Source: Arcticibacter sp. (GTDB lineage: Bacteria > Bacteroidota > Bacteroidia > 2-12-FULL-35-15). Taken from it: a DNA stretch of 64,000 bases. The position numbers and the translations under genes are program-made. Location: positions 126,832 to 190,831 of the forward strand of contig JAJNQB010000006.1 in the NCBI GenBank assembly GCA_021155045.1, in the 5' to 3' direction. Positions 21,703 to 56,283 of this stretch are shown in pieces; positions within the stretch are counted from its first letter, which is position 1, and every line of letters starts with the position of its first letter. The notes beneath the pieces were generated by a model. The model searched no databases and was not told where the DNA came from. It was given only the letters and a program-made list of their open reading frames with translations.

Positions 21703-24051
21703 ATGATAGAGAAAAGAAAAGATAATTTAATAGAAATTGAAGATTTAAGAAAATTTTTAAAAATTTTTTCTAGAAATTGGATTGTTATTTTATTATTTAT
21801 TTCAGTTTCTTTTCTCGGGTCTTATGTATATACACACAAGCTTCCCGATATTTATGGGGCAAAAGCTCAAGTTTTATTGAAAAATAACGAAACGTATGAT
21901 TATCAAAACCAAATTTATAAGGGAATTGGTTATTATGCCACTTATCAAGACAATGCAAATCAAATTAGAGTATTAACCTCGAATGACCTAATCGCTCAGG
22001 TTATTTCTAAATTAAATTTAGATGTTTCTTATTTTATTATCGGAAGATTAAAAAAAACAGAAGTCTTTCAATCTGTTCCTTTTGAGGTAAAAATAAAAAC
22101 AATAAATCCTGCACTTTATGAGACGCCCATAAAAATTACAATCATTGACGAAGAACATTTTTCTTTAAGTTATTTAAAGAATGGGAGTTCAATGACTAAG
22201 AAATTTATGTTTAACAAATCTATCGAGGATCAGGATTTTTATATGATTGTAGAAAAAAATTCAATCATAAACAAGAACTCTATAGCCTCTTTAAATGAAA
22301 CGGATTATGAAATAGTTGTTTCGTCAAATGCATCATTAGTTGCAAAGTTTAAGAATAATCTTAGGGTTAATGAGATTGAAAGCACCACTATTTTAGAGCT
22401 GTTTTTAGAAGACGAAATACCTCTGAGGGCAATCAGTTTTTTAGATACGCTATCAAAAGTTTACATAGATTATACTTCAAAGTCCCAAATTATTATAAAC
22501 AATAATACAATTGATAATATTGATAAACAATTAAAAGAAATAACAGATGTACTTAAATCGATTGAGGATGACATGGAACTTTACCGTTCCGAAAAAGGTA
22601 TTTTAGACATAAATAGACAGCAAGATAATTATTTTGAAAAGCTAATTGATTTTGACACCAAAAAACGAGAACTAGAACTTTGGTCACAATCTTTGGAATC
22701 TTTACAAAAGTATATTATTTCGGTAGGTGATATATCAGACGAAAAACTTTTGCCCCCATCTTATTATATTGAACAGGGGGACGATTATTTAAAAGCAGCT
22801 TTGGGTAAATTGTATACCCTTCAAATGGATAGAAACCAACGATTAAATGGTTCAACTTTAAAGAATAGAAATATAAATGAAATTGATCAAGAACTTGATT
22901 TATTAAAAAAGAATATTTTAACGTATATTGATAATTCAAAAAAAGGCTTGAAAGACAGAATAACAGATATATCTAAACAGATTCAAGAATATACATCCAT
23001 TATAAAAACTGTTCCCAAAACTCAAAGAGATTTATTAAATATTCAACGTAAATTAGATGTGAACCAAAAAATGTATTCCTATCTTTTGGAAAAAAGAGCG
23101 AGTACTTTAATAGCAAAGGCTGGTATTTTACCTGAAACAAATGTTATAGAAGCTGCTCACAGTGTTGGAATTGTTGCCCCGAATAAGCGAAAGATAACAT
23201 ATTATTTTTTAGTTATTTCTTTATTTATTTCTGCTATTATTATATTTATTCGTCAAGTTTTTTATTATAGAATAGAAAATATTAATGAACTTAAAAGGCT
23301 TACAAATATTCCTGTTTTAGGAGAAATAATTCTTAATGATGCAAATCAAGAAAATTATATAATAGTGGATAAAGAAGTAAAATCGGCTATAACTGAAAGT
23401 TTTAGAGCAATCCGAACAGGATTGGAATATTTTGCAAGCAGTAACTCTTCCAAAATTGTTTTGCTTACATCTTATAACCCAGGAGAAGGTAAAACTTTTT
23501 GTTCTGTCAATCTTGCAACAATTTTGGCAAAAGGCGGAAAAAAAGTATTGTTGCTAGAATTGGACTTACATAAACCTAAAGTTCAGAAAGCATTTGATAT
23601 AGATGTTTCTGAAGGGATAACAAATGTATTAATTGGTAAATCTTCTATTGAATCTGTTGTAAAACAAACACATGTTGAAAATTTATCAGTTATGTTGGCA
23701 GGGCCAATTCCACCGAATGCTTCAGAATTAATTTTGAGCAAACACCTTTCTGAAATTTTTAACTATGGAAGACAAAATTTTGATTACGTAATTATTGACA
23801 CTCCTCCAATTGGTTTAATAACAGATGCATTTGTTATGATTAAAGATGTGGACATATCTCTCTTTGTAATAAATTCAAAAGTTGCAAGAAAACAAATAAT
23901 AAATATTGTGGAAGAAATGGTTGAAACAAATAAATTTCAAAATTTTGCCCTCTTACTTAATGGTGTGAAAAGAAACCGATCAAAATACTATTATAATTAT
24001 GGTTATGGTTATGGTTATGGTTATGGAAATTCACCAAAGTCTAAAAAGTAA
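21703..24051 (+). CDS. wzc: polysaccharide co-polymerase / BY-family tyrosine autokinase (Wzc-like)
   Basis: N-terminal Wzz-like domain with TM segments. Walker A 'GEGKTFCSVNLATILAKGGKKVLLLELDLHKP' and Walker B-like 'VIIDTPP'. Tyrosine-rich tail 'YYYNYGYGYGYGYGNSPKSKK'. Confidence 0.85.
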   Translation: MIEKRKDNLIEIEDLRKFLKIFSRNWIVILLFISVSFLGSYVYTHKLPDIYGAKAQVLLKNNETYDYQNQIYKGIGYYATYQDNANQIRVLTSNDLIAQVISKLNLDVSYFIIGRLKKTEVFQSVPFEVKIKTINPALYETPIKITIIDEEHFSLSYLKNGSSMTKKFMFNKSIEDQDFYMIVEKNSIINKNSIASLNETDYEIVVSSNASLVAKFKNNLRVNEIESTTILELFLEDEIPLRAISFLDTLSKVYIDYTSKSQIIINNNTIDNIDKQLKEITDVLKSIEDDMELYRSEKGILDINRQQDNYFEKLIDFDTKKRELELWSQSLESLQKYIISVGDISDEKLLPPSYYIEQGDDYLKAALGKLYTLQMDRNQRLNGSTLKNRNINEIDQELDLLKKNILTYIDNSKKGLKDRITDISKQIQEYTSIIKTVPKTQRDLLNIQRKLDVNQKMYSYLLEKRASTLIAKAGILPETNVIEAAHSVGIVAPNKRKITYYFLVISLFISAIIIFIRQVFYYRIENINELKRLTNIPVLGEIILNDANQENYIIVDKEVKSAITESFRAIRTGLEYFASSNSSKIVLLTSYNPGEGKTFCSVNLATILAKGGKKVLLLELDLHKPKVQKAFDIDVSEGITNVLIGKSSIESVVKQTHVENLSVMLAGPIPPNASELILSKHLSEIFNYGRQNFDYVIIDTPPIGLITDAFVMIKDVDISLFVINSKVARKQIINIVEEMVETNKFQNFALLLNGVKRNRSKYYYNYGYGYGYGYGNSPKSKK
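24001..24026 (+). repeat. (GGTTAT)x4.3 in-frame hexanucleotide tandem repeat encoding the (GY)n tail of Wzc
   Basis: 'ggttatggttatggttatggttatgg' read directly from the sequence. Confidence 0.9.
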
Positions 24052-30627: not shown

Positions 30628-30922
30628 TGTTTTTTTGAACTATTTTTTAAAAGTTTTATGTTTATAAAGATTGTTTAAAACTAAACTCAGATTTAGCCAT
30701 CACCTTGATGGGTTGAACTATAAAATATGCAACTTTAAGAGTTCATTATACCAATTTTTTAATAAAAAACAGGGATTAACGCAGTTAAGGTTGTACATAT
30801 CATTAACATTTTTAGCTCTTTTTATATAAAATCCACTATTATAAATGATATTTTGGGAAATACCTGCATTTGTACTAAATTAGCACATTGTTTTTGACAC
30901 AAATGCAAAAAAAGTTTAAAAT

Positions 30923-32647
30923 ATGAAAACCAACAGTGCTATTTTAATTTTACTTATTACAAGTTACATAAATGTAAATGCTCAAAATTGGGAATGGGTT
31001 CAAACAATTAGACCAGGTGGTAACGAATACTGCTGGTCCATTGCAAATGATATTTATGGTAATATTTATACTACAGGTAGGGTAAAAGCTAATTCTACTT
31101 TTGGTTCGGGAACAAATATTCAGTCTCCTCCATATATTACGGTAAACCAAACAGATGTTTTTGTAGCCAAATATCGTTCTGATGGAACATTGGTTTGGGT
31201 AAAAAGAGATGGTGGTAAGGAAGCAGATTGGGGAAGAGACATAGCTGTAGATAAGTACAGTAATACTTATGTTGTAGGTGATTATACCGATACTGCAAAT
31301 TTTGGAACATTTCAAATAATCGGATATGGAGGGGCTAGTAATAGGAATATTTTCTTAGCAAAATATGACAGTTCTGGGGTTTGTCTTTGGGCAAAAACAG
31401 CTGGAAATTCTTCGATGGCTTCCAAAGGGTATGCCGTTACAGTCGATTCTATTGGCAATTCTTATATAACAGGTTATGTAGGGGGTGTTACTAGTTTTGA
31501 TGGAATATCTTTTGGTACCGCTGGAAAAACTTTGGCTTTTATTGCTAAATTTAATTCTATCGGGACTTGTCTCTTTGTAAAAACACTTAGTGCTCAATAT
31601 TTAAGTGAAGGTCAGGATATAAAAATAAATAAAAATGACGATGTTTATTTAACTGGTGATTATAGAGGAACTCTATATGTGAATGCTCTTACATTCCCTG
31701 GTAACAGTTCTTCTTGGAGCGATGTCTTTTTGATTAAAATGGATACTTTGGGTAATTTTATATGGGCAACAACTGCAATTGGAGCGTACCAAGATCAGGC
31801 AAATTCTGTAGATTTCGATTCTAATGGAAATATATATATAGCAGGTACTTATGCAAATGATTTGACATTTGGCACAACAACTATTAATAGTCTCGGTTGG
31901 GCATCAACAGCATCTACTGCAAATGCAAAAGCCGATAGTTTTATTGCTAAATATGATGCTAACGGAAATTTTAAATGGGTAAAAACAATTCGCAATAATA
32001 TAGTTTCTCCTTTAAATCCAAATGATTTATCTTCGGATGATTTACATGTTGATAGGAATAATAATGTGCTAATCTCTGGGTATGTTATTGGAAATTCCGA
32101 TTTTGATGGAGCTTTAATCCTTCTGGACAGCACCCATGAAACAGGCTACGTTACCGCTTTCGATACGGTTGGAAATATAGTTTGGAATAAGTTAACTGGC
32201 AATTCAAACAACTCTGCATTTGTTGCAAGAGGAGTTTGTTCTGATGTTACAGGGAAATATTATGTTGGTGGAGAATTTTATGGAACTCCATATTTTAATT
32301 TTGATACAATTACAGAACAATCATACAATGGATGGGACGGTTTTATCGGAAGATTTTACTACCCAATAATTACGTCCACTGTTCTTAAGGATAATGATGA
32401 AAAAGTTTTGATTTTTCCAAATCCTACTGAGTATTTTATAAACATTGAAATTCCGAATTTCAAACCAAATGACTCTTACTTTTTAACGATTTACAATTTG
32501 TTTGGTGGGATTGCATTAAGTCAGATAAAAATAACATCTTCTCTTTCTAAAGTGCAAGTTTCAAATTTAAATTCAGGAATATATTTTTTAGAAATATATT
32601 CTAAAGAAAATAATAAAAGAGAAATACAAAAGATTATAATTAAGTAA
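30923..32647 (+). CDS. T9SS-secreted SBBP (beta-propeller) repeat protein
   Basis: Signal peptide. There are 7-8 repeats of the Y..G…DFGTF.Y.SDG..W.K type (SBBP-like). T9SS CTD '…KVLIFPNPTEYFINIEI…GIYFLEIYSKENNKREIQKIIIK'. Confidence 0.7.
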   Translation: MKTNSAILILLITSYINVNAQNWEWVQTIRPGGNEYCWSIANDIYGNIYTTGRVKANSTFGSGTNIQSPPYITVNQTDVFVAKYRSDGTLVWVKRDGGKEADWGRDIAVDKYSNTYVVGDYTDTANFGTFQIIGYGGASNRNIFLAKYDSSGVCLWAKTAGNSSMASKGYAVTVDSIGNSYITGYVGGVTSFDGISFGTAGKTLAFIAKFNSIGTCLFVKTLSAQYLSEGQDIKINKNDDVYLTGDYRGTLYVNALTFPGNSSSWSDVFLIKMDTLGNFIWATTAIGAYQDQANSVDFDSNGNIYIAGTYANDLTFGTTTINSLGWASTASTANAKADSFIAKYDANGNFKWVKTIRNNIVSPLNPNDLSSDDLHVDRNNNVLISGYVIGNSDFDGALILLDSTHETGYVTAFDTVGNIVWNKLTGNSNNSAFVARGVCSDVTGKYYVGGEFYGTPYFNFDTITEQSYNGWDGFIGRFYYPIITSTVLKDNDEKVLIFPNPTEYFINIEIPNFKPNDSYFLTIYNLFGGIALSQIKITSSLSKVQVSNLNSGIYFLEIYSKENNKREIQKIIIK

Positions 32648-32768
32648 TTTCATTATTACTGTAAAATAGATGGAAGGAATACCTAATCAGTTGTTTTAAT
32701 TATATTTTAAAAGCTTGAATTGATGGTAAAAGTCAAGTGCACCAACTAAAATATATTGTTATTTTAAA

Positions 32769-33680
32769 TTAATTCTTGCTTTTAAAGTATAATTGCGTTT
32801 TTACGACTGCATATAGAAATAAATGTTTGATTGCAATGTCTGGTGTTTCAAAAATATAAAAGAAAAATGCTTTAAATAATTTAGCTGAATTATGGTTCAT
32901 TCGCAAGTTTAAGAACAAACAATTAATACAACTTTTTTTTACTTTTTTATAAAATTCAAGATTGATAATCTTCAGATTATTCTTAACGAAATCACTTTGT
33001 AAAGTGTCTTCAATAAAATGGATGTTCCCTATAGCACTTTTGGCGTCCTGATGGCGCCTGAAATAAGTATAATATTCATCCACGTATTCAAATTTATAAT
33101 TGTGTGCTGCAATTTTTAGCCAAAAATCTACGTCCATTGAATAATGCAGTTTTTCGTCTAAGGGTCCCAATTCTTTATAAATTTTCATACTAAAGAAAGA
33201 GCTTGGCTGGTTAACGATGCAGTTATTTGTACATGGTAAATACTCGTTATTGTTTATTAGTTTGCTTTTTATCTGAGAGTCTAGTAAATTGTCATTTTTA
33301 TCAACAAAATAGCAATTGCCTACTAAATAATTGAACGGTTTTCTTTTCCATATATCTGACACTTTTTTTAAAGTGTCTGGCAAGAAATAGTCATCAGAAT
33401 TCAGCCATGTTGCAATTTCGCCCGTTGCAATAGATAAACCTTTATTAATAGCATGGCTTTGTCCATTATCCTTTTTACTTTCCCAAAAATGAATTTTCGA
33501 TTCATACTTTCTTAAAATGTCAATACTTCCATCTTTGCTACCACCATCTATTATTATGTATTCTAAATTAGGATAGTTTTGATTCAAAACAGATACAATA
33601 GTCTTTTCAAGAAATTCAGCCTGATTGAATGAAGGAGTAATAATGCTAATTTTAGGAAATTCTTCTTGCGATTGTACCAT
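32769..33680 (-). CDS. GT2 family glycosyltransferase
   Basis: 'ISIITPSFNQAEFLEKTIVSVLNQNYPNLEYIIIDGGSKDGS' and DxD 'NSDDYF'. Confidence 0.85.
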   Translation of the reverse strand: MVQSQEEFPKISIITPSFNQAEFLEKTIVSVLNQNYPNLEYIIIDGGSKDGSIDILRKYESKIHFWESKKDNGQSHAINKGLSIATGEIATWLNSDDYFLPDTLKKVSDIWKRKPFNYLVGNCYFVDKNDNLLDSQIKSKLINNNEYLPCTNNCIVNQPSSFFSMKIYKELGPLDEKLHYSMDVDFWLKIAAHNYKFEYVDEYYTYFRRHQDAKSAIGNIHFIEDTLQSDFVKNNLKIINLEFYKKVKKSCINCLFLNLRMNHNSAKLFKAFFFYIFETPDIAIKHLFLYAVVKTQLYFKSKN

Positions 33681-33996
33681 TTTTTGTATCTTTAAAATGT
33701 GAATTTAATACTTAAATTGTTTTGCAAATGTATTCAATAAAAAAAACAGAAAAAAGTTATCTTATTCATGGTATTTGATGTTTGTGAAAAAGCATATAGA
33801 TTTGTTGCAATGAATTGCCTTTGCTTGAAAATAGTTGGGTAAAATGTAGTATCCTTGATCAAAACAGAATTGAGCATTATATTACGTATGTGAGTGATGT
33901 AGAAAAATTCAAAAGCCGTCTTTAGATTGGAAGTATAACTAATAGATGGTTCAGATTATTACTGAAATGATACAGGTAGCATAGAAAGTATAAGAT

Positions 33997-34893
33997 ATGG
34001 TAATTGTAAAATTAATGGGTGGTATGGGGAATCAAATGTTTCAATATGCATTTGGATTTTTTCTAGCTAAAAAAAACAGAAAAACTTTGAAATTAGATTT
34101 AAGTTTTTTGCAAGACAGAAGAGAAAAAAAAAAAATTGTATTCAGAGAATTCGATTTAACGATTTTTAATGTGTCAGAAGAGGTTATTGCAACTAAAGAA
34201 GAAATAGCTTATTATTCAGGTGTTTCGCCCAATGGAAAATCATTGAACTTAATAATAACATTAAAAAGAAAACTTTCACTTCCTCATCATCTAATTGATT
34301 ATTCTCTTAAATATCATCCTGAATATAAATTGATAACTTCAAATATATATCTGGAAGGCTATTTTCAGTCGCCTGCCTATTTTTCTGAGATAGAGGAAGA
34401 CATTCGTAAAGAATTCATATTCAAGAATAAAATTTTACCGATTTCAAATGAATTAGCCGAAAAAATTAAAATGTCTAATTCTGTTTGTTTACATGTTCGT
34501 AGAACAGATTTTGTGGAGGAGGATTTAGGTAAAAACATACATGGATTTGTAGAAGAAATGTATTACTTTAATGCTGTAAAATTCATTAAAGAGAAAGTAC
34601 ATAAACCAGAATTGTTTATTTTCTCAGATGATATAGAGTGGTGTCAGAACAACCTTGTTTTTGATTTGCCAACTCGTTTTGTATTGAATGAACACAATGG
34701 AGAAAAAATTAGTAATTACCTGCAATTGATGACCTTGTGCAAGCATTTTATCATTCCCAATAGTACATTTGCTTGGTGGGCTGCTTGGCTTTCTGAAAGC
34801 CCCGATAAATTGGTAGTCGCACCTCTGAAATGGATGATTAATTCAGAAAAGGATGAAACAGATTTAATACCAAAAAGTTGGATAAGACTATGA
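33997..34893 (+). CDS. GT11 alpha-1,2-fucosyltransferase
   Basis: N-terminal 'VIVKLMGGMGNQMFQYAFGFFLAKK' and 'CLHVRRTDFV' are hallmark GT11 motifs. Confidence 0.85.
   Translation: MVIVKLMGGMGNQMFQYAFGFFLAKKNRKTLKLDLSFLQDRREKKKIVFREFDLTIFNVSEEVIATKEEIAYYSGVSPNGKSLNLIITLKRKLSLPHHLIDYSLKYHPEYKLITSNIYLEGYFQSPAYFSEIEEDIRKEFIFKNKILPISNELAEKIKMSNSVCLHVRRTDFVEEDLGKNIHGFVEEMYYFNAVKFIKEKVHKPELFIFSDDIEWCQNNLVFDLPTRFVLNEHNGEKISNYLQLMTLCKHFIIPNSTFAWWAAWLSESPDKLVVAPLKWMINSEKDETDLIPKSWIRL
34124..34135 (+). repeat. A12 homopolymeric tract inside the GT11 fucosyltransferase ORF (encodes KKK)
   Basis: 'gagaaaaaaaaaaaattg' read directly. Confidence 0.9.
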
Positions 34894-35892: not shown

Positions 35893-37116
35893 TTGTTAAG
35901 TATTATGAGCAAGTTTCTATATTTCTTTACTGCCGAATTTCCCTTTGGGAAAGGAGAAAGTTTTATTGAAAATGAAATTCCAGTTTCTTCCAATTATTTT
36001 GAGAAAATATATTTGTTTCCTCACAGTAATAGAAGTTCGGAATGTCGGAATCTTGTGGTTAATGCAGAAGTAGTAAAAATGAATTATGGAGAAAACATAC
36101 ATTCAAAATCAATTTTAATAAATAATTATTTTTTTATTGCAAAAACTCACTTGTTTGAGTTTGTGAATTGTTCAAATAAACTTTTTTTTATTAAAAACAT
36201 TCGGTATTTAAATTCACTATTAATTAGGGGTATACATGATGCAGAATTGATTGCTCGATCAATAAAGCATCCTTTAGATGAAGTTATTTTTTATTCTTAC
36301 TGGATGAATGATTGGGCATTGGCATTATCCGTCTTAAAAGAAAAAAAAATCATTAAAAATTTTGTTTTTAGATGCGGTGGTTTTGATATTTATGATGAAA
36401 GATATGTAGGTAATTATTTACCTTTCCGTTATTTTATTTATAAAAATGCTTCCGGAATATTTCCGAATTCAAAAATGGGAGAAGCGTACATTAAAAAAAA
36501 AAAAATATTTCCTGATAAGGTAGTAGCAAAATATTGGGGAACAACCGACAATGGTGAAGGAAAGTTTGACGAAAAGACTACCTTTACTTTAGTATCTTGC
36601 TCAAGCATAATTCCTTTAAAAAGAGTTCATTTGATTGTTGAAATCCTTAAAAATATTAAGTTTGAAATGCATTGGATTCATTTTGGTGATGGTGAATGTG
36701 CTGATAAAATAAAAAATATTGCAAAAGAATTATTACCAATAAATGTAAAATATTCATTTAAAGGAGGGGTAAGTAATCAGGAAGTAATAAGCTTTTATAA
36801 AACAAATACGGTGAATTTATTTATTACAACTAGCGAAACAGAAGGTTTACCTGTATCAATTCAGGAAGCAATAAGTTTTGGAATACCTATTGTTGCTACA
36901 AATGTTGGTGGAGTTTCTGAGATAGTGAATGAGAAAACAGGTTTTTTAATAACTAAAAATTTTGAGGTTAAAGAGGTTGCGAAGCTTATTAGCCAATTTA
37001 GAATAAGTTCTAAGAATTCAAAAATATTTAGAGAAAATGTAAGGAACTTCTGGAAAGAAAATTTTAATGCGGAAAAAGTTTATGCAAATTTTTCAGAAAC
37101 GATTAAAAAAGGTTAA
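35893..37116 (+). CDS. GT4 family glycosyltransferase
   Basis: 'TSETEGLPVSIQEAISFGIPIVATNVGGVSEIV' is the E-x7-E motif of retaining GT4. Confidence 0.8.
   Translation: MLSIMSKFLYFFTAEFPFGKGESFIENEIPVSSNYFEKIYLFPHSNRSSECRNLVVNAEVVKMNYGENIHSKSILINNYFFIAKTHLFEFVNCSNKLFFIKNIRYLNSLLIRGIHDAELIARSIKHPLDEVIFYSYWMNDWALALSVLKEKKIIKNFVFRCGGFDIYDERYVGNYLPFRYFIYKNASGIFPNSKMGEAYIKKKKIFPDKVVAKYWGTTDNGEGKFDEKTTFTLVSCSSIIPLKRVHLIVEILKNIKFEMHWIHFGDGECADKIKNIAKELLPINVKYSFKGGVSNQEVISFYKTNTVNLFITTSETEGLPVSIQEAISFGIPIVATNVGGVSEIVNEKTGFLITKNFEVKEVAKLISQFRISSKNSKIFRENVRNFWKENFNAEKVYANFSETIKKG
36493..36505 (+). repeat. A13 homopolymeric tract (encodes KKKK) inside the GT4 gene; a second A9 tract lies at 36341-36349 in the same ORF
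   Basis: 'cattaaaaaaaaaaaaatattt' read directly. Confidence 0.9.
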
Positions 37117-37970: not shown

Positions 37971-39227
37971 ATGCGAATTCTACTTTTATCATTGTATTAT
38001 CCTCCACTTAACACTATCGCTGCGCTAAGAATAAAAGCATTTGAAAAATATCTGACTGAGTTCGGTTTTACTGTAGATGTGATTACCAGATATTATGACT
38101 CAGAGCAACAAAAAGGACAAAGTATGTTTTTGGGAAACCAATCGGCAAAAGATTTTAAAGAAGATTATTTTAAAATTAACAATGTAATATATACCAATTT
38201 TGATGAAAACAATGAAAAGTTGGATTTCTCAAATAAATTACCAGCTATTGTTAAGGGGCTTTATAATTATTTAAATATAGACGTATTTCATTATGGTTGG
38301 ATAAAATATGCTTTGAATGCTTTCGATAATGAGTTGAGCCATAATAAATATGATTTTGTTATTGCCTCTTATGGTCCTCCTGTTTCAATGCTTTTAGCTA
38401 ATAAGCTATTTAAAAAATATAAAATTCCTTTTCTGATTGATTTCAGAGATAGTTATATTAATGAAAAAGATGTTTCTTTTCATTTAACAATGAAGCAAAA
38501 AGTTTTAAATGCTATGCTCAAAAGATCTTCGGGGCTTATTTTTTCTACGGAAGGAATGAAAGATTATTTTCTTTTGAAAACGTCACAGAATTTACAGAGG
38601 ATTCCTTCATGCATTGTTTATAATGGCGTAGAGGAGTTGTCGCAAAATGGAGATATTGAAGAAAAAAAAATAACTGAATTTTGGAAAATCCACTCTAAAC
38701 ATGATTTAATATTATTGCACGCAGGAACTTTGTATCCAGGTCAAAATGTTTCTTTTTTTATAAATTCAACAAGTAAGTTTAATACTGAAAACAATAAAAA
38801 TGTAGGAATAATATTTTTAGGGCTATCAGAAAATCGCATGAATGAAATCGAACCACTTCCTTTTATTCATTTTTTACCAAAATCAAATTATTCTACATCG
38901 TTATTCCTTCAGAAAGAGGCTGACGCCTTGATTTTGCCTATTTGGAATGGGAGGTATACTGGATTTTCAGGAAAAACTCAAGAGTATTTATATTCTGGTA
39001 ATTTTATTATTACTAGCCCAAACCCTCAGAATGATTTGAAATTATTTCTTGATATTTCACCAAATGTTAGAATTAGCAATGACTATGATTCGTTTTCAAA
39101 ATTTTTAGATGACATAATAAGTGGAAATTGTACTAAATTGCAGCTTAATAATAAAGAAAAATTATATCGATTTTTTTGGGTGAAGAGATTAGCTGAATTT
39201 TTAAGAAAATTAAAAACAAATGAATAA
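37971..39227 (+). CDS. hypothetical protein, possible GT-B fold glycosyltransferase
   Basis: N-terminal 'RILLLSLYYPPLNTIAALR' resembles a GT4 N-domain start. No clear C-terminal motif. Confidence 0.35.
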   Translation: MRILLLSLYYPPLNTIAALRIKAFEKYLTEFGFTVDVITRYYDSEQQKGQSMFLGNQSAKDFKEDYFKINNVIYTNFDENNEKLDFSNKLPAIVKGLYNYLNIDVFHYGWIKYALNAFDNELSHNKYDFVIASYGPPVSMLLANKLFKKYKIPFLIDFRDSYINEKDVSFHLTMKQKVLNAMLKRSSGLIFSTEGMKDYFLLKTSQNLQRIPSCIVYNGVEELSQNGDIEEKKITEFWKIHSKHDLILLHAGTLYPGQNVSFFINSTSKFNTENNKNVGIIFLGLSENRMNEIEPLPFIHFLPKSNYSTSLFLQKEADALILPIWNGRYTGFSGKTQEYLYSGNFIITSPNPQNDLKLFLDISPNVRISNDYDSFSKFLDDIISGNCTKLQLNNKEKLYRFFWVKRLAEFLRKLKTNE

Positions 39228-40266
39228 TCAATCATTATATTGGGTTGATAAGGCAAGGGTATGGGCATCTTTTGCTGTTGTTGTAATTCATATTAATGCC
39301 CTTTTTCTAAATATATATAGTCAAGAAATTCCAGCATTTTGGGCTTTTTCAAATTTTACTGGATCGTTGGTTCGTTGGTCAGTTCCTTTGTTTGTAATGC
39401 TTAGTGGTTTTTTATTGCTTTCATCTCAATCTCAATCATTGAGAGATTTTTTAAATAAAAAAATGAAAAGAATATTATTTCCGTTAATTGGGTGGTCTGC
39501 CATTTATTATTTGTATTTTTTTTTTAGAGCAAAATATTTGAATGGTAGTCCTTTAGTTCTTAGTAATGTGGTAAATAACTTTTTGTTGGGGAAACCATAT
39601 TATCATCTATATTTTTTGTTTTTAATTTTTGGTTTATATTTGGCAACCCCAATTTTAAAAGTATTTATTCAAAATGCATCACAGAACTTGATTAAATATT
39701 TCGTTTTTTTTTCATTATCTGTGGTTGTTATTCCTGTATTTTTAGATTATTTTTTACCCAATAAATGGTTTGGAGCAATAGTTTTAGGGAATGATTCCAT
39801 GTTTAATTTTTTTATTCAATATTTAGGTTATTTTTTGGCAGGTTTTTATATTGCAAACTATACTAGAATAACCACTTACAATGTAATTAGAGTTTGGATT
39901 ATTTTATTTTTTTCAATTTTAGTTACGATGATAGGTACTTATATATACCATGATACAGGATATTTTTACTCATATTTAAGCATAAATGTAATGTTAATGT
40001 CTCTTGCGGTATATTATTTGTTTTTTTATTACAAAAATCCTACTTCTTTTACATTTGAAAAAATTATTAGGTTTATCGCTCCGAATACATTGGGAATTTA
40101 TTTAATTCATCCTATAATATTTGAATTATTCCCCAATATTCATCAATTATCATTTAAGGTAGGTCCATTAATTGGAACGCTAATTATTTCGGTAATAGTT
40201 TATTTAATTTCACTGATTTTAGTTATTATTGCTAGAAGAATTCCAGTTGTAAGGAATATTGTATAA
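39220..40266 (+). CDS. acyltransferase family 3 membrane O-acyltransferase
   Basis: 'WVDKARVWASFAVVVIHI' and about 10 TM segments, typical of the OafA/WecH-type AT3 family. Confidence 0.8.
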   Translation: MNNQSLYWVDKARVWASFAVVVIHINALFLNIYSQEIPAFWAFSNFTGSLVRWSVPLFVMLSGFLLLSSQSQSLRDFLNKKMKRILFPLIGWSAIYYLYFFFRAKYLNGSPLVLSNVVNNFLLGKPYYHLYFLFLIFGLYLATPILKVFIQNASQNLIKYFVFFSLSVVVIPVFLDYFLPNKWFGAIVLGNDSMFNFFIQYLGYFLAGFYIANYTRITTYNVIRVWIILFFSILVTMIGTYIYHDTGYFYSYLSINVMLMSLAVYYLFFYYKNPTSFTFEKIIRFIAPNTLGIYLIHPIIFELFPNIHQLSFKVGPLIGTLIISVIVYLISLILVIIARRIPVVRNIV

Positions 40267-43009: not shown

Positions 43010-43999
43010 ATGAATAGTCCTAAAAATATTCCCGTATTAAATTCTTTAAGAGCTTTTGCTGCTTTGTCTGTTTGTATATTTCATTATGTATGCACAGTTA
43101 CTGGTTTTGTTACTAATGAAATAATTTTGTCAATATTTTCATTTGGGCATTACGGAGTTCAAATGTTTTTTGTAATCTCTGGGTTTATTATACCATGGTC
43201 CATGTATAACAGTAAATATAAGATTCGCAACTTCTTTACATTTACAGCAAAACGATTGATTCGACTCGAGCCTCCTTATCTTATTTCTTTGCTTATTGCT
43301 ATTGTTCATACCTATGCAAGGACATTAGGTCCGCATTATAATGGTGTGGATATTACTCCATCAGGAAAAGAAATTCTCCTTCATTTTGGTTACTTGGTTC
43401 CATTTTTTGAGGGAGCTACTTGGATACGTCCTGTTTATTGGACGCTGGCAATTGAATTTCAATATTACCTTGCAATTGGATTGCTGTTTGGGTTTATTTC
43501 CAGTAATAAAATATGGCTGAGAATTATTATCTACATACTTTTTTTATCAGGACCAGTATTGCTTAAGTCTAATTTTTTACCTTTTCATTTACCTGTTTTT
43601 TTATTGGGTATAATTGTGTATTTATATAAAACAGATATTATAAAAAGTATTGAATTATATTCCGTAGCTACTACAATACTTGTTTTTATTGGTATATTCA
43701 ATAATTTGCCTACACTGTTTTTTGCAGGATTTACATTTTTAATAATTATGTATTTTAGTCATGTGAAAAGTGCGGTAGGTGATTTTTTAGGAAATATATC
43801 TTACTCTATTTATTTATTTCATAGTTTAACAGGAATGCTCTTGCTTAATTATTTTGCTCATTCTGCTACCTCAGCCTTAATTAAACTTTTATTAATAATA
43901 GTAGCTGTGCTTGTTACTATTCTAGCATCCTGGGTAGTGTATCGTTTTGTGGAAAAGCCTTCTAAGGAATTGTCATCAAGAATAAAATATAAAAAATGA
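43010..43999 (+). CDS. acyltransferase family 3 membrane O-acyltransferase
   Basis: 'IPVLNSLRAFAALSVCIFH' and multiple TM segments. Confidence 0.8.
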   Translation: MNSPKNIPVLNSLRAFAALSVCIFHYVCTVTGFVTNEIILSIFSFGHYGVQMFFVISGFIIPWSMYNSKYKIRNFFTFTAKRLIRLEPPYLISLLIAIVHTYARTLGPHYNGVDITPSGKEILLHFGYLVPFFEGATWIRPVYWTLAIEFQYYLAIGLLFGFISSNKIWLRIIIYILFLSGPVLLKSNFLPFHLPVFLLGIIVYLYKTDIIKSIELYSVATTILVFIGIFNNLPTLFFAGFTFLIIMYFSHVKSAVGDFLGNISYSIYLFHSLTGMLLLNYFAHSATSALIKLLLIIVAVLVTILASWVVYRFVEKPSKELSSRIKYKK

Positions 44000-45144
44000 G
44001 AATAGCATTACTAACCGATGGTATCTATCCTTATGTTATTGGAGGAATGCAGAAACATTCATTCTACCTTGCCCGTTATTTTGCTCAGAATAAAATCGAA
44101 GTGGATTTGTACCATACTGCTACTGATTTTGAAGGCGCAAATCGATTAAGCTGTTTTTCTGAAAAAGAAAAAAAATACATTCATTCCATACTTATCCCTT
44201 TTCCAAAATTTGATAAATTCCCTGGTCATTATATTCGAGAAATGTATGCATATTCTAAGAATATTTTTGAACATTTAAAAATGCGTCAGAAACCAGATTT
44301 TATATATGTACAAGGTTTATGTGGGATGAAACTATTTGAAAATAGAAATCAAATTAATGCCCCAATTGGCGTTAATTTTCATGGTTTGGAAATGTTTCAA
44401 AAGGCTGCCGACATTAAAACAAAGCTGGAACAATATTTTTTTAAAGGACCAGTATTGAAATCAATGAAAAATGCGGATGTTGTTTTTTCATTGGGAGGAA
44501 AACTCAGTAAAATAATTAGTGATCAAGGAGTTTCAAAAAAAAAAATTATAGAGATTCCGATTGGAGTGGACGAAAGTTGGTTGAAAAAAAACGATCTTGT
44601 TTTTAATGATAAACGAAAATTTGTTTTTATCGGTAGATATGAAAGAAGAAAAGGAATTGAAGAGTTGTCAAATGTTATAAAAAAGCTAACGAAGCAGATT
44701 GAATTTGATTTCGATTTTATTGGCGATATACCTAAGAATAAACAAATTAAACAGAGTAACATAAAATATTACGGAAGTATTAAGGACGCTGAAAAAATAA
44801 AAGAAATTCTTAATACTGCCGATGTTTTAGTTTGTCCTAGTTATAGCGAAGGTATGCCAACTGTAATTTTAGAAGCAATGGCTTCTGGACTTGCGGTTAT
44901 AGCTACAGATGTTGGTGCTGTGAGGGAACAAGTGGATAAAACTAATGGCTTATTGATTCAACCTGGAAATATTAGACAATTAAAAGAGGTTGTTAATAAG
45001 TTTATTCAAATGGAAGGAAAAGATTTAATGAAATTAAAGTTAAACTCCATTGAAAAAATAAAAAGTAAGTTTCTTTGGAATTTTATAATTTCTCAAACAA
45101 TAAAAGAAATCGAGTTAGTAGTAAATTATAGTAAAAAGTACTAA
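43996..45144 (+). CDS. GT4 family glycosyltransferase
   Basis: 'VCPSYSEGMPTVILEAMASGLAVIATDVGAVRE' is the E-x7-E motif. Contains an A11 tract at 44535-44545. Confidence 0.85.
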   Translation: MRIALLTDGIYPYVIGGMQKHSFYLARYFAQNKIEVDLYHTATDFEGANRLSCFSEKEKKYIHSILIPFPKFDKFPGHYIREMYAYSKNIFEHLKMRQKPDFIYVQGLCGMKLFENRNQINAPIGVNFHGLEMFQKAADIKTKLEQYFFKGPVLKSMKNADVVFSLGGKLSKIISDQGVSKKKIIEIPIGVDESWLKKNDLVFNDKRKFVFIGRYERRKGIEELSNVIKKLTKQIEFDFDFIGDIPKNKQIKQSNIKYYGSIKDAEKIKEILNTADVLVCPSYSEGMPTVILEAMASGLAVIATDVGAVREQVDKTNGLLIQPGNIRQLKEVVNKFIQMEGKDLMKLKLNSIEKIKSKFLWNFIISQTIKEIELVVNYSKKY

Positions 45145-45170: not shown

Positions 45171-45854
45171 ATGAACGAAATAAAAATATTTATAGCAGAC
45201 AATCTTTCGGGTTTTTCGCCTAAAACCATTCCTAATTTTATTTTTAGCTTTATTGTTTGTGCGGTTTTAGCTTTTTTACTTGGAAAATTATATATTAGAT
45301 ATGGAAACTCAATATCGAATAGAAAACAATTTGCTAGAAATTTTATGGTTTTAGCAATTACAACAATGTTTATAATTTCTGTTGTAAAATCTTCTTTAGC
45401 CTTGTCTTTAGGATTGGTTGGTGCGCTTTCCATTGTTCGATTTCGATCTGCAATAAAAGAGCCAGAAGAATTAACATATCTGTTTTTGACTATTTCTATT
45501 GGATTAGGTTGCGGAGCTGGAATGTCTATTTTAACCATAATTGCTTTTATGGGATTTGCTTTAATAATTTGGATTAATGGAAAGCTTAAACAAAAAACCG
45601 ATTCTCAAAATCTTTATCTAACCATATCCTCGAATGACCCACAAAATATTAATCTAACAACAATTGTAGAGCATTTAAAAAAAGAATGTGATTATATTAA
45701 ACTTAAAAGATCAGATGAAACCCCAAATGGTATAGAAGTTTCTTTTTTTGTTGAATTTGAGACGTTTGAAAAACTGGAAAAAGTAAAAAGCGAACTTAAA
45801 ACACTACACCCAGATATTTCTATAACCTTCATGGACAATACCAGAGAATTATAA
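45171..45854 (+). CDS. DUF4956-family membrane protein
   Basis: 'LGLVGALSIVRFRSAIKEPEELTYLFLTISIGLGCGAG' is the conserved DUF4956 core. 4 TM segments. Confidence 0.6.
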   Translation: MNEIKIFIADNLSGFSPKTIPNFIFSFIVCAVLAFLLGKLYIRYGNSISNRKQFARNFMVLAITTMFIISVVKSSLALSLGLVGALSIVRFRSAIKEPEELTYLFLTISIGLGCGAGMSILTIIAFMGFALIIWINGKLKQKTDSQNLYLTISSNDPQNINLTTIVEHLKKECDYIKLKRSDETPNGIEVSFFVEFETFEKLEKVKSELKTLHPDISITFMDNTREL

Positions 45855-54394: not shown

Positions 54395-56283
54395 ATGTGC
54401 GGAATTAATGGTATCATAGGAATTCAAAATGTTGTTATTGCAAAAGAAAAAATTATTGCAATGAACAATCGCATGAGTCATCGCGGACCTGATGATGAAG
54501 GAATATTTGTTGATGAAAATATTGCGTTGGGACATAGAAGACTTTCAATTATTGATTTGTCGTCTGCTGGACATCAGCCCATGCAATCGTTTGATGGACG
54601 TTATCAAATTATATACAATGGTGAGTTATACAATTACAAAGAATTGAAATTTGAATTACAAAGAGTTGTTGCAGGTTCAAATCAACAAGCATATATTTTT
54701 CAGACAAATACAGATACAGAAGTTATCATTGCTGCATTTGCAAGATGGGGAATAGATTGTGTAAAAAGATTTAATGGAATGTTTGCTTTTGCTATTTGGG
54801 ATAACCAAAATAAAGAATTATTTATTGCAAGAGACAGATTAGGAATTAAGCCTTTGTATTATTTATATGTGAATGAGATTTTTGCTTTTTCTTCAGAAAT
54901 ACGTTCATTGCTTGCTAGTAATTTAATTTCGAGAAAGCTTGATCAGAATAGTTTAGTTGATTATTTGAGATACCAAACTGTTCATGCGCCTAATACAATA
55001 GTAAAAGGCATTAAAATGCTAATGCCTGGTCATTTCATTTCCATGAAAAATAATGAATTGAGAATTAAAAAGTATTGGGACATAAATTCCTTTATAAAAC
55101 CAGCAGATGCAAAAGCAAGTTACAATGAAATTTGTAAAAATGTAAATGAATTACTCACTAAATCGGTAGAAAGAAGATTAATTGCAGATGTTCCTTTTGG
55201 AGCTTTTTTGTCTGGGGGAATTGATTCGAGTGCTATAGTTGGTTTAATGAGTAAAGTGTCAACTGAAAAGATTAAAACATTTAATATATCGTTTGATGAA
55301 AGTGAATTTTCGGAGGCTAAGTACGCTACTTTAATTGCTAAAAAATTTAATACCGATCATCACGAAATACGATTAACTCCTCAGGATTTTTTAAATGATT
55401 TACCTAGTGCATTAAAGGCAATGGATCATCCAAGTGGTGATGGGCCGAACTCGTATGTTGTTTCTAAGGCTACCAAAAGAGCTGGAATAACAATGGCTTT
55501 ATCTGGGTTAGGAGGAGATGAATTATTTGGAGGTTATGATGTTTTCAAGCGCAATTTAGATTTAAATAAAAAAGCATGGCTGAATGGAATACCAAAAATT
55601 GCCCGTTCTTTCGGTGGAGAAGTTTTAACAACAATAAAACCATCAATTGCTTCCGAAAAAATTGCAGAACTATTAAGGAAAAATAAAATTAATTTTCAAT
55701 CTTTTTATCCGATCACACGACAAGTGTTAATGGATAAGCAAATTTTAAATATTATAAATAGGAATCAATTAACAAAAAATAGAGTTGCTGAAATCATAGA
55801 AGAATCTCACATCTCACATCTCACATCTCACAAGTCTCCATTGCCGAGATTTCTACTTATATGCAAAATGTTTTGCTCCGAGATACAGACCAAATGAGTA
55901 TGGCTCATGCGCTAGAAGTAAGGGTTCCTTTTATTGATTATACATTGGTGGAATATGTGCTTGGAATTCCTGATAAGTATAAAAATGTGTCGAGTCCCAA
56001 AAAACTTTTAATAGATGCACTGGGTGATTTATTGCCAGATGAAGTTGTAAATCGGACTAAAATGGGTTTTACATTTCCATGGAAGCATTGGATGAAGAAC
56101 GAATTAAAATATTTTTGCGAAAGTAATATAGTGTCTCTATCAAAACGAGCGATGTTTAATGAAAGTGCTATAATTGCCATGTGGAATAATTTTTTGGCGG
56201 ATAAAAAAATAGTTACTTGGTCTCGTATTTGGCATTTAGTTGTGCTGGAAAATTGGTTACAAGAAAATAACATTGAGGAATAG
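54395..56283 (+). pseudogene. asnB: asparagine synthase (glutamine-hydrolysing) family amidotransferase, split by a frameshift at a heptanucleotide repeat (frame 2 to frame 1 near 55805-55832)
   Basis: N-terminus 'MCGINGI' is a class-II GATase Cys2. 'SGGIDSS' is the PP-loop. The second ORF (55861-56283) continues the C-terminal AsnB domain ('DQMSMAHALEVRVPFIDY'). Frame 1 is open through the repeat, reading '…ISQVSIAEISTYMQNVLLRD…'. Confidence 0.8.
55805..55832 (+). repeat. (TCTCACA)x4 perfect heptanucleotide tandem repeat at the asnB frameshift point
   Basis: 'tctcacatctcacatctcacatctcaca' read directly. A gain of one unit or a loss of two units would restore a single ~630-aa ORF. Confidence 0.95.

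What the first reader, a model, noticed from the sequence alone, without database searches (positions are those of the whole stretch)
34124..34135. A12 tract in the GT11 alpha-1,2-fucosyltransferase and A13/A9/A11 tracts in GT4 genes: possible homopolymer phase variation of glycan structure
The fucosyltransferase ORF has an A12 run at 34124-34135. The GT4 at 35893-37116 has both A13 (36493-36505) and A9 (36341-36349) runs. The GT4 at 43996-45144 has an A11 run (44535-44545). By a rough composition-based estimate, runs of 9 are expected by chance in this AT-rich DNA but runs of 12-13 are not (about 0.2-0.4 expected per window). They also cluster in glycosyltransferases, encoding Lys runs, where a ±1 slip would truncate the enzyme. 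Homopolymer-mediated switching of fucosyltransferases is well known in Helicobacter.
Basis: seen in the sequence. Interest (0 to 1): 0.5.

Follow-up and report, generated by a model that had tools for sequence, protein, structure and literature searches.

The report
Slippery repeats in polysaccharide genes
The long A-runs are real but no more numerous than this AT-rich genome's lysine codons predict; even so, the longest run and a nearby 7-base repeat differ between otherwise identical assemblies, each change shifting a surface-sugar gene's reading frame, which is an ordinary kind of bacterial on/off switch.

Summary
All four tracts sit exactly where stated. They are in-frame AAA-lysine runs in a GT11 fucosyltransferase and two GT4 genes of a large polysaccharide locus in an uncultured Bacteroidota genome (30.5% GC).

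The claim that they exceed chance fails. Shuffling synonymous codons within genes predicts 3.1, 1.9 and 0.76 runs of at least 11, 12 and 13 bases; 3, 2 and 1 are observed. The tracts are absent from two syntenic relatives (34% and 40% GC). They are by-products of Lys-rich loops and 84% AAA usage.

Length variation does occur. A second sequencing run (SRR16980155) matches the window over 43.8 kb with no substitutions. Its only internal difference is A13 to A14, which splits the GT4 gene at 35905-37116. The focal A12, the A11, the A9 and a T10 are the same in all three assemblies.

I also found a perfect (ATCTCAC)x4 repeat at 55804-55832, exactly where an asparagine-synthase-like gene is frameshifted. 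One more unit restores a 631-aa protein. Both independent assemblies carry k-mers that need at least 5 units.

Verdict: these are slippage hotspots acting as de facto switches, a new member of a known kind. A sequencing artefact at A13/A14 is not excluded. Selection for switching is not shown.

The parts
33997..34893 (+). GT11 alpha-1,2-fucosyltransferase-like gene (298 aa)
   Evidence: It hits PF01531 at 1.2e-31. The HxRRxD-type motif LHVRRTD and the other invariant columns are shared with 13 homologues. The identical protein is present in all three assemblies.
34124..34135 (+). A12 tract (GAA AAA AAA AAA ATT = E-K-K-K-I, codons 43-47); the focal tract
   Evidence: Seen. The length is the same in the NCBI window, SRR22387982 and SRR16980155. 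Homologues have RKN or KKN at this site.
35905..37116 (+). GT4 glycosyltransferase 'GT4a' (403 aa from ATG 35905; the ORF list starts at TTG 35893)
   Evidence: It hits PF00534 at 3e-22. The independent Logan gene call is 403 aa.
36341..36349 (+). A9 tract in GT4a (K-E-K-K-I)
   Evidence: Seen. It is invariant in all assemblies.
36493..36505 (+). A13 tract in GT4a (ATT AAA AAA AAA AAA ATA = I-K-K-K-K-I); the only homopolymer seen to vary
   Evidence: It is A14 in Logan SRR16980155_32451. There the gene is called as a 223-aa C-terminal fragment (P0142), and the predicted 203-aa N-terminal fragment was neither called nor found. This is the only difference in 20,672 aligned bases. K197 and K199 are conserved in homologues, while the other two Lys positions are S/N/D/K.
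43996..45144 (+). GT4 glycosyltransferase 'GT4b' (382 aa)
   Evidence: It hits PF00534 at 3.8e-30 and PF13439. The identical protein is in all three assemblies.
44535..44545 (+). A11 tract in GT4b (TCA AAA AAA AAA ATT = S-K-K-K-I)
   Evidence: Seen. It is invariant. The orthologue in L008 has H-K-K-I.
39516..39525 (+).
   Evidence: Seen. It is invariant in both Logan assemblies.
54395..56283 (+). Asparagine-synthase-like amidotransferase gene, split into ORF1 54395-55897 (500 aa) and ORF2 55861-56283 (140 aa) in different frames
   Evidence: ORF1 covers TIGR01536 positions 1-424 and ORF2 covers 448-517. The protein made by adding 7 nt (631 aa) covers 1-517/517 and Pfam Asn_synthase 2-354/354 in a single stretch.
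55804..55832 (+). Perfect heptanucleotide repeat (ATCTCAC)x4.1 at the frameshift point of the asparagine-synthase-like gene
   Evidence: TRF score 58 with 100% matches. None is expected in 100 shuffles. 2, 5 or 8 units give one long ORF. The Logan left contig ends ...(ATCTCAC)4AT and the right contig starts C(ATCTCAC)4AA. Both need at least 5 units, on flanks that are otherwise 100% identical.
23997..24026 (+). Perfect hexanucleotide repeat (TTATGG)x5 encoding YGYGYGYGYG in the C-terminal tail of the Wzz/GNVR/P-loop (BY-kinase-like) gene 21703-24051
   Evidence: Seen. The Logan contigs on either side end at 24026 and start at 23997, so they overlap by exactly the 30-nt array. Copy-number heterogeneity here is inferred only from the assembly break.

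Best explanation
The A-tracts are lysine runs written almost entirely with AAA codons. They lie in surface-loop positions of three glycosyltransferases in a 30% GC Bacteroidota polysaccharide locus. They arose as by-products of AT-biased composition, and neither their number nor their conservation points to design.

Runs of 11-13 A are nonetheless physically prone to slipped-strand mispairing during replication. At the longest one, in the GT4 gene at 35905-37116, this appears to have happened. One population sample carries A13, giving an intact 403-aa enzyme. Another carries A14, giving a predicted 203-aa N-terminal fragment plus a separate 223-aa C-terminal ORF. In the A14 form, the sugar this enzyme adds would be lost, or much reduced, from the polymer.

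The same locus holds a more classical switch. A 7-nt repeat in an asparagine-synthase-like amidotransferase is out of frame at 4 units and in frame at 5 units. Its copy number differs between assemblies.

Shown here:
- the tract positions and their frame consequences;
- the lack of statistical excess;
- the lack of conservation in relatives;
- the sequence differences between assemblies.

Inferred, not shown:
- that the differences arose in vivo;
- that they are reversible;
- that they change the glycan;
- that transcriptional slippage and ribosome sliding on A11-A14 make both states leaky (from the literature only).
For: The codon-aware null matches the observed counts, and the Markov nulls agree. 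AAA makes up 84% of Lys codons, and 4 of the 11 runs of three or more Lys are pure AAA.

Homologues have K/R-rich residues at the same sites. The syntenic loci L008 (40% GC) and L010 (34% GC) have no A/T run longer than 9.

SRR16980155 against the window:
- 14,966 + 20,672 + 8,197 nt were compared with zero substitutions.
- The only differences are A13 to A14 and the base next to the heptamer.

SRR22387982 matches the window over 24890-55832 except for the terminal base beside the heptamer. The restored asnB-like protein matches its family end to end.

Precedents:
- A8/A9 tracts in V. cholerae wbeL and manA (PMC3441752).
- A9 to A8, A8 to A7 and T9 to T10 changes in A. baumannii gtr6 and wzx (PMC10249906).
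- A poly-A tract in L. monocytogenes inlA that varies about 1000 times faster than point mutation (PMC2831843).
- Heptanucleotide switches in neuO and pglE.
Against: - There is only one observation of A13/A14. Poly-A/T indels are the commonest artefact of library PCR and Illumina sequencing, and they worsen near 14 nt.
- I could not see the reads, so the allele frequencies within samples are unknown.
- The focal A12, the A11, the A9 and the T10 never vary across the three assemblies.
- No simulated frameshift product of GT11 or GT4b is in the 15-billion-protein collection, and nor are the N-terminal frameshift fragments simulated for GT4a.
- The exact heptamer copy number in the Logan data is unresolved. 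It is at least 5, and the contig-end pattern fits 6 or more, or a mixture. An in-frame allele has therefore not actually been observed.
- Whether the NCBI assembly and the Logan runs come from the same or different samples is unknown.
Confidence: 0.55

Rival explanations
1. Pure composition plus technical artefact. The tracts are incidental Lys runs, stable in vivo on the relevant timescale. The A13/A14 difference comes from polymerase stutter in library PCR, Illumina homopolymer miscalls, or the assembler's choice between bubble arms. No biological switching occurs at any of the four tracts.
For: - The codon-shuffle and Markov nulls explain the counts.
- The tracts are not conserved.
- Three of the four listed tracts, plus the T10, are invariant.
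- Poly-A/T indels dominate low-quality calls and rise with PCR (PMC4240813).
- Illumina indels increase for tracts around 14 bp.
Against: - The consensus changed only at the single longest tract.
- Eight other tracts of 9-12 nt in the same 20.7 kb are identical.
- A stutter artefact normally leaves the modal length unchanged, and PCR stutter favours contraction over the +1 seen here (my own knowledge).
- A second, non-homopolymer repeat in the same locus also differs between assemblies, so repeat instability in this population is not only a homopolymer-calling problem.
Confidence: 0.25
2. Evolved contingency loci. Selection has installed and maintained long A-tracts specifically in glycosyltransferases so that the fucosyltransferase and both GT4 enzymes switch ON and OFF at high frequency. 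This would generate combinatorial glycan variants, for example to escape phage.
For: - All three runs of at least 11 are in GT genes, while non-GT genes have none against 1.97 expected.
- 7 of the 8 other runs of three or more Lys in the window are broken by AAG.
- The GT11 tract is near the 5' end (codons 43-47), the preferred position for switching tracts.
- A13/A14 variation is observed.
- A heptamer switch in the same locus shows that repeat-based frame switching exists here.
Against: - The enrichment is borderline (P about 0.05-0.06) and was tested after seeing the data. The 'pure AAA' contrast is circular, because the tracts were picked for being long.
- The total count equals the null.
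- The tracts are absent from the orthologous genes of syntenic relatives.
- Two of the three long tracts are mid-gene.
- No variation is seen at A12, A11 or A9 in three assemblies.
Confidence: 0.2
3. The tracts act mainly at the RNA and protein level. RNA polymerase slips on runs of at least 9 A, and ribosomes slide on consecutive AAA codons. The tracts would then lower and diversify enzyme output from any allele, and would partly rescue out-of-frame alleles such as A14. That is an attenuator, not a DNA switch. This reading is compatible with the others.
For: All of this evidence is from the literature.
- Transcription slippage occurs on runs of 9 A/T in bacteria (PMC5009743).
- An A11 run restores frame in C. 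rodentium tssM (PMC4256274).
- Ribosomes slide on iterated AAA, and such runs are selected against (PMC4363877).

Within the window, runs of at least 10 are depleted, with 4 observed against 8.0 expected (P=0.027).
Against: Nothing in the sequence data tests this. No RNA or protein data exist for this organism, and the slippage properties of Bacteroidota RNA polymerase are unknown to me.
Confidence: 0.15

Closest known systems
Vibrio cholerae O1 wbeL (A8) and manA (two A9) poly-A tracts in O-antigen genes (PMC3441752)
   Same: Both are in-frame poly-A tracts inside surface-polysaccharide biosynthesis genes. A single-base slip truncates the enzyme. Variants are found among otherwise clonal isolates, and the changes alter a phage receptor.
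   Different: In V. cholerae, switching, reversion (for manA), LPS phenotype and phage selection were all shown experimentally, and the tracts are conserved in all 37 O1 strains. Here the tracts are longer (A11-A13), not conserved in relatives, and supported by one assembly-level difference. No phenotype is known.
Acinetobacter baumannii K-locus gtr6 glycosyltransferase (A9 to A8, A8 to A7) and wzx (T9 to T10) slippage mutants (PMC10249906)
   Same: Both involve homopolymer slippage in a capsule glycosyltransferase, acting as the recurrent mutational route to an altered surface glycan.
   Different: Those mutants were recovered under phage selection in the laboratory and were described as resistance mutations. 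Here no selective agent is known.
Helicobacter pylori fucosyltransferase phase variation
   Same: A GT11-family alpha-1,2-fucosyltransferase carries a homopolymer near the 5' part of the ORF, and a +1 or -1 change truncates it.
   Different: H. pylori uses poly-C tracts, and futC also has a translational frameshift element. Variation there is documented within strains. Here the tract is poly-A, and the GT11 tract was invariant in every dataset available.
E. coli K1 neuO poly-psi heptanucleotide repeat (PMC9659370) and Neisseria meningitidis pglE heptanucleotide repeat (PMC7157529)
   Same: Both have a perfect 7-nt tandem repeat inside the coding region of a glycan-modifying gene. The reading frame depends on the copy number modulo 3. 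This is the best analogue for the (ATCTCAC)n repeat at 55804-55832.
   Different: The known cases lie in an O-acetyltransferase and a glycosyltransferase of host-associated Proteobacteria. From memory, I place the neuO repeat near the 5' end. Here the repeat is about 75% of the way into an asparagine-synthase-like amidotransferase of an uncultured Bacteroidota, and the OFF form keeps the glutaminase domain and most of the synthetase domain.
Citrobacter rodentium tssM1 A11 transcriptional slippage site (PMC4256274)
   Same: An A-run of similar length lies inside a coding region, where RNA polymerase slippage yields products in more than one frame.
   Different: That is a programmed site that restores an otherwise interrupted gene and was shown by mass spectrometry. 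Here the effect is only inferred.
Invertible-promoter phase variation of Bacteroides capsular polysaccharide loci (reviewed in PMC11868660)
   Same: It occurs in the same phylum and gives the same biological outcome, namely ON/OFF heterogeneity of surface polysaccharides.
   Different: The mechanism is site-specific DNA inversion by invertases, not repeat slippage. A scan of 30500-34100 found only weak AT-rich inverted repeats. The Pfam scans of the window's ORFs returned no recombinase or invertase family.

Membership tests
Repeat-mediated (slipped-strand) phase-variable / contingency locus | A repeat tract lies within the ORF or promoter, and a change in its length switches the reading frame or expression | tested here: met
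   A +1 or -1 change at each A-tract truncates the enzyme. Heptamer copy number sets the frame of the asnB-like gene.
Repeat-mediated (slipped-strand) phase-variable / contingency locus | Tract length varies among clonal or near-clonal genomes, or within a population | tested here: inconclusive
   A13 versus A14 is the sole internal difference in 20.7 kb. Heptamer k-mers needing at least 5 units contrast with 4 units in the window. A12, A11, A9 and T10 are invariant. An artefact at A13/A14 is not excluded because the reads were not available.
Repeat-mediated (slipped-strand) phase-variable / contingency locus | Tracts are over-represented relative to composition and codon expectation, implying selection for mutability | tested here: not met
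   The codon shuffle expects 3.1, 1.9 and 0.76 runs of at least 11, 12 and 13; 3, 2 and 1 are observed. Enrichment in GT genes is borderline (P about 0.05-0.06) and was tested after seeing the data. This test covers the homopolymers only. The heptamer is far beyond chance, with 0 expected.
Repeat-mediated (slipped-strand) phase-variable / contingency locus | The tract is conserved in orthologues or strains | tested here: not met
   The orthologous codons in the syntenic locus L008 are CCT AAA AAG AAT and AAA AGT AAG AAT. No run longer than 9 occurs in L008 (21 kb) or L010 (15 kb), or is implied by the homologue alignments.
Repeat-mediated (slipped-strand) phase-variable / contingency locus | Switching is high-frequency, reversible and has a phenotype | not testable with these tools
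   This needs cultures, or deep read and long-read data with glycan analysis. The organism is known only from metagenomes.
Glycosyltransferase family 11 (alpha-1,2-fucosyltransferase) | Match to the family profile and conserved catalytic motifs | tested here: met
   PF01531 scores 110.5 bits against a cut-off of 23.9. The invariant G-G-N-Q-M-F N-terminal motif, the R168-R169-x-D171 motif and the C-terminal P-N-S-F-W-W motif are shared with 13 homologues, some of which are named alpha-1,2-fucosyltransferase by NCBI. Donor and acceptor specificity were not tested.
Glycosyltransferase family 4 (GT-B, Glycos_transf_1) | C-terminal Glycos_transf_1 domain, with or without the N-terminal Glyco_transf_4 domain | tested here: met
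   GT4a hits PF00534 with 79.4 bits. GT4b hits PF00534 with 105.1 bits and PF13439 with 45 bits. Both A-tracts lie just upstream of the C-terminal domain, so truncation removes that domain.
Heptanucleotide-repeat coding switches (neuO / pglE type) | A perfect 7-nt tandem repeat lies inside the ORF, only copy numbers of one residue class modulo 3 give the full-length product, and copy number is polymorphic | tested here: met
   (ATCTCAC)x4.1 has 100% matches. 2, 5 or 8 units give 624, 631 or 638 aa, while 3, 4 or 6 units give 511, 500 or 518 aa. The full-length product matches the family end to end. Contig ends in two runs require at least 5 units. An in-frame allele itself was not observed.
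Invertase-driven promoter inversion (Bacteroides capsule type) | Inverted repeats flank a promoter upstream of the locus, with a nearby site-specific recombinase | tested here: not met
   Only weak, AT-rich inverted repeats (71-88% complementary) occur in 30500-34100. The Pfam scans of the window's ORFs returned no recombinase or invertase family. Only this one region was scanned for repeats.

The most novel reading that the evidence does not exclude
An uncultured, free-living Bacteroidota lineage varies its surface polysaccharide through a small set of slippage-prone repeats. The set would comprise an A13 tract in a GT4 gene, a heptanucleotide repeat in an amidotransferase, possibly a YG-encoding hexamer in the chain-length/kinase protein, and further A11-A12/T10 tracts. 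Different samples of one clone would then carry different ON/OFF combinations. That would be repeat-based phase variation in a phylum where capsule switching is known only through DNA invertases, and it is plausibly driven by phage.
Probability: 0.3. Interest if true: 0.6.

Novelty: new member of a known kind. Interest (0 to 1): 0.4.

Why it matters
If the length differences are real in vivo, this is an example of repeat-driven ON/OFF switching of polysaccharide genes in an environmental Bacteroidota known only from metagenomes. Phase variation has been studied almost entirely in host-associated pathogens. In this phylum it is attributed to invertible promoters.

There is also a practical point. 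Annotation pipelines will call such genes pseudogenes or split genes (GT4a in one assembly, the asnB-like gene in the NCBI record). Short-read graph assemblies break at the repeats. Both are recognisable signatures that could be mined at scale.

If the A13/A14 difference is an artefact, the finding reduces to ordinary AT-rich lysine runs.

Tried and rejected
1. Looking for other strains.
- The genome-contig scan with GT4a returned only 36-37% identical Bacteroidota MAG hits, so the species is not represented there.
- Two JGI metagenome scans, with the flanks of the A13 tract and of the heptamer and a variable gap, returned nothing.
- The nearest GT11 and GT4a homologues are only 70% and 60% identical.

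2. Exact look-ups of simulated products.
- The +1 and -1 frameshift products of GT11, GT4a and GT4b were not found.
- The asnB-like products for 2, 3, 5, 6 and 8 heptamer units were not found.
- The second result is expected, because the Logan contigs break at the repeat.

3. A text search for the two SRA run accessions found no paper, so the sample origin and sequencing platform are unknown.

4. An invertible-promoter alternative was considered. Inverted repeats around the GT11 upstream region are weak and AT-rich, and no recombinase family turned up in the Pfam scans, so I rejected it as unsupported.

5. I rejected the contrast 'pure AAA in the three GTs against AAG-interrupted Lys runs elsewhere' as evidence. 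It gave 3/3 against 1/8, but it is circular, because the three tracts were chosen for being long.

7. I did not run structure prediction. The Pfam domain boundaries already show what each truncation removes.

8. Whether the two halves of the A14 allele (203-aa N-domain and 223-aa C-domain ORFs) could work as a split GT-B enzyme is pure speculation and was not pursued.
Full report
THE OBSERVATION

The window is 30.5% GC.

The genes are as described.
- 33997-34893 matches Pfam Glyco_transf_11.
- 35905-37116 matches Glycos_transf_1. The mechanical ORF starts at TTG 35893, but the independent gene call uses ATG 35905 and gives 403 aa.
- 43996-45144 also matches Glycos_transf_1.

Every tract is an in-frame lysine run: GAA-AAA-AAA-AAA-ATT, ATT-AAA-AAA-AAA-AAA-ATA and TCA-AAA-AAA-AAA-ATT. 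A slip of one base ends the proteins at residues 53/57 (GT11), 207/209 (A13 tract), 154/171 (A9 tract) and 184/203 (GT4b). In each case the catalytic C-terminal part is removed.

The genes lie in a locus of about 38 kb (21.7-60 kb). It has a Wzz/P-loop kinase-like protein, an ABC transporter pair with a Wzt C-terminal domain, about eleven glycosyltransferases, acyl-, acetyl-, methyl- and carbamoyl-transferases, a Wzy_C protein, CotH/VTC/DUF4956 genes and an asparagine-synthase-like amidotransferase. T9SS-tailed proteins, and SHMT relatives named only as Bacteroidota or Bacteroidia MAGs, place the organism in uncultured Bacteroidota.

IS IT MORE THAN CHANCE?

That null ignores the strong neighbour dependence of AT-rich coding DNA.

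- Markov models of order 1-6 expect 2.6-5.0, 1.0-2.1 and 0.4-0.9.
- The most appropriate null keeps every protein sequence and each gene's own codon usage and shuffles synonymous codons. It expects 3.12, 1.92 and 0.76. The observed counts are 3, 2 and 1.
- Lysine is encoded by AAA 84% of the time. Of the 11 runs of three or more Lys in the window, 4 are pure AAA, where about 6 would be expected.
- Runs of at least 10 are slightly depleted, with 4 against 8.0 expected (P=0.027).

The number of long tracts therefore needs no special explanation.

The clustering in glycosyltransferases is borderline. GT genes have 3 runs of at least 11 against 1.26 expected (P=0.054). Other genes have 0 against 1.97 expected (P=0.05). 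Given three runs, the chance that all fall in GT genes is about 0.06. GT genes are also richer in lysine (10.4% against 7.4%), and the comparison was made after the fact.

WHERE THE TRACTS COME FROM

Alignments with homologues show that the lysine runs sit at positions that are basic in the whole family.
- The GT11 site is D-R-x-P-R-K-N-F in the consensus and E-K-K-K-I here.
- The GT4a site is Y-I-K-[SKDN]-K-[NK]-x-F, with K197 and K199 conserved, and I-K-K-K-K-I here.

Two syntenic loci from relatives were recovered, with the same gene order (for L008; for L010).
- L008 is 40% GC and carries the GT11, GT2 and GT4a orthologues in the same order.
- L010 is 34% GC and carries the closest GT11 homologue (70% identity).
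- Neither has any A/T run longer than 9.
- In L008 the orthologous codons read CCT-AAA-AAG-AAT and AAA-AGT-AAG-AAT.

The tracts are therefore specific to this lineage and track its lower GC content. This is the pattern expected of a compositional by-product and not of a conserved regulatory device.

DO THE TRACTS VARY?

Exact-protein look-ups showed that GT11, the adjacent GT2 and GT4b are each encoded on three contigs in public assemblies. GT4a is on only two. A homology search then found a 223-aa protein that is 100% identical to the C-terminal half of GT4a, on a Logan contig from run SRR16980155. That contig is 31,838 bp, one base longer than the 31,837-bp contig from run SRR22387982.

Aligning 20,672 bases of that contig to the window gives one difference: the A13 tract is A14. 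The A12, A11, both nearby A9 tracts, the T10 and three T9 tracts are unchanged.

Further contigs from the same run match the window perfectly over 14,966 and 8,197 bases. In 43.8 kb there are no substitutions at all.

By contrast, a third run (SRR22388206) carries a related strain.
- It shows 24 substitutions in 5.4 kb.
- It has two homopolymer indels.
- One gene is replaced by a different one.

The organism is therefore a natural population sampled several times. The SRR16980155 genotype is the same clone as the window except at repeats.

THE CAVEAT

One A13/A14 difference between assemblies is not proof of in-vivo switching.
- Illumina indel errors rise for tracts of about 14 bp.
- I had no access to reads, so I cannot say whether each sample is pure or mixed.

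Against a pure artefact:
- The consensus changed only at the longest tract.
- Eight tracts of 9-12 nt nearby did not change.
- The change is an expansion, whereas polymerase stutter mostly contracts runs (my own knowledge).

I put the artefact explanation at about one in four.

A SECOND, CLEANER REPEAT SWITCH

Tandem Repeats Finder showed two perfect arrays, and both coincide with the ends of the Logan contigs.

The first is (ATCTCAC)x4.1 at 55804-55832. None is expected in shuffles. It sits exactly where an asparagine-synthase-like gene is broken into a 500-aa ORF and a 140-aa ORF in another frame.
- Adding one unit gives a single 631-aa protein.
- That protein matches TIGR01536 over 1-517/517 and Pfam Asn_synthase over 2-354/354 in one stretch.
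- The two window ORFs cover model positions 1-424 and 448-517.
- Copy numbers 2, 5 and 8 are in frame. Copy numbers 3, 4 and 6 are not.

The contig ends give direct evidence of a copy-number difference.
- The Logan contig on the left (SRR22387982) ends ...GAAGA(ATCTCAC)4AT. Its last base is T, where the window has A.
- The contig on the right (SRR16980155, the same contig in two samples) begins C(ATCTCAC)4AAG. Its first base is C, where the window has A.
- The flanks are 100% identical over 12,565 and 8,197 bases.
- Both terminal 31-mers can exist only in an allele with at least five units.

In a k=31 graph a clonal 29-nt array should not break the assembly. The pattern of ends (the last k-mer that still contains a flank base) fits an array long enough to make the periodic k-mers cycle, or a mixture of alleles. 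This last step is my inference about assembler behaviour. An in-frame allele was not directly seen.

The second array is (TTATGG)x5 at 23997-24026. It encodes YGYGYGYGYG in the C-terminal tail of the Wzz/GNVR/P-loop protein. The flanking Logan contigs overlap by exactly this 30-nt array. That suggests a branch there too, though with no direct evidence of a second allele.

HOW IT MOST LIKELY WORKS

Replication slippage on the A13 run adds or removes one A. This toggles GT4a between an intact two-domain GT-B enzyme and a form that lacks the nucleotide-sugar-binding domain. Slippage on the heptamer toggles the amidotransferase between a form truncated in the synthetase domain and a full-length form. 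Either change would alter the repeat unit or its decoration.

Published work shows that shorter A8-A9 tracts in O-antigen and capsule genes are the dominant route to phage escape in V. cholerae and A. baumannii. Heptanucleotide repeats control neuO and pglE.

Runs of at least 9 A also provoke RNA polymerase slippage, and runs of AAA codons provoke ribosome sliding. The ON and OFF states are therefore probably leaky. This is inference from other organisms.

The focal A12 tract in the fucosyltransferase has the right position for a switch (codons 43-47). However, it was identical in all three assemblies, so for that gene the hypothesis remains untested rather than supported.

COMPARISON WITH KNOWN SYSTEMS, AND NOVELTY

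The mechanism is the textbook slipped-strand one. What is less usual is the setting, an uncultured environmental Bacteroidota. The recent review I read describes polysaccharide phase variation in Bacteroides only through invertases. Two literature searches for repeat-based switching in this phylum found nothing relevant.

The homopolymers fail two features expected of evolved contingency loci: excess over expectation and conservation. I therefore file them as hypermutable by-products that work like switches. The heptamer meets the structural criteria of a coding-repeat switch.

Overall this is a new member of a known kind, of moderate interest. The decisive test is a read-level analysis of the named runs.

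Noticed in passing
window 55804-55832, within 54395-56283: A perfect (ATCTCAC)x4 repeat sits exactly at a frameshift that splits an asparagine-synthase-like amidotransferase into 500-aa and 140-aa ORFs. One extra unit restores a 631-aa protein that matches the family end to end. Two independent Logan assemblies carry terminal k-mers that need at least 5 units.
   Followed up: yes
window 23997-24026, in gene 21703-24051: A perfect (TTATGG)x5 repeat encodes a YGYGYGYGYG tail (tyrosine cluster) of the Wzz/GNVR/P-loop kinase-like protein. Both flanking Logan contigs stop at this array and overlap by exactly its 30 nt. This suggests, but does not show, copy-number heterogeneity. Changes here would stay in frame and alter the number of tyrosines.
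   Followed up: partly
window 57409-59210, compared with L009 4576-5153: A 99.5% identical strain in run SRR22388206 lacks the carbamoyltransferase gene (57436-59214). It has a shorter, unrelated segment carrying a hexapeptide-repeat transferase instead, so gene content in this locus differs between co-occurring strains.
   Followed up: partly
window 63689-63696 and about 60419-60423: Both indels separating the SRR22388206 strain from the window are in homopolymers. One is a T8 run (9 in the other strain) 28 nt upstream of the AsmA-like gene's start codon. The other is a C5 run (C4 in the other strain) in the intergenic spacer 60398-60475.
   Followed up: no
window 39516-39525 and 39704-39712, in gene 39220-40266: T10 and T9 runs (Phe codons) lie inside an Acyl_transf_3 acyltransferase gene, a class of enzyme that I recall as often phase-variable elsewhere. 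Both runs were invariant in the two Logan assemblies.
   Followed up: partly
window 45171-52238: Two CotH-domain proteins, one with a right-handed beta-helix, are embedded in the middle of the polysaccharide locus with a VTC-domain protein, a DUF4956 protein and a Wzy_C protein. The same DUF4956-VTC-CotH order is kept in the relative L008, and DUF4956 is followed by a truncated gene at the contig end in L010.
   Followed up: no
window 30923-33680: A T9SS-tailed SBBP beta-propeller protein (30923-32647) and a lone minus-strand GT2 gene (32769-33680) interrupt an otherwise plus-strand locus just upstream of the fucosyltransferase. A T9SS-tailed protein is kept in the same place in the relatives, where the neighbouring GT2 gene is on the plus strand.
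   Followed up: no
window 11739-18756: A 2123-aa PKD/Ig-repeat protein with a T9SS sorting tail lies next to a small exosortase-EpsH-like membrane protein (18220-18756). In the Logan gene calls there is also a 74-aa ORF with a faint PID_CTERM hit, which may be a sorting system.
   Followed up: no
window 5181-5187: A G7 run lies inside the dihydrodipicolinate synthase gene (4569-5459). It is the only G/C run of 6 or more in this 30% GC window.
   Followed up: no
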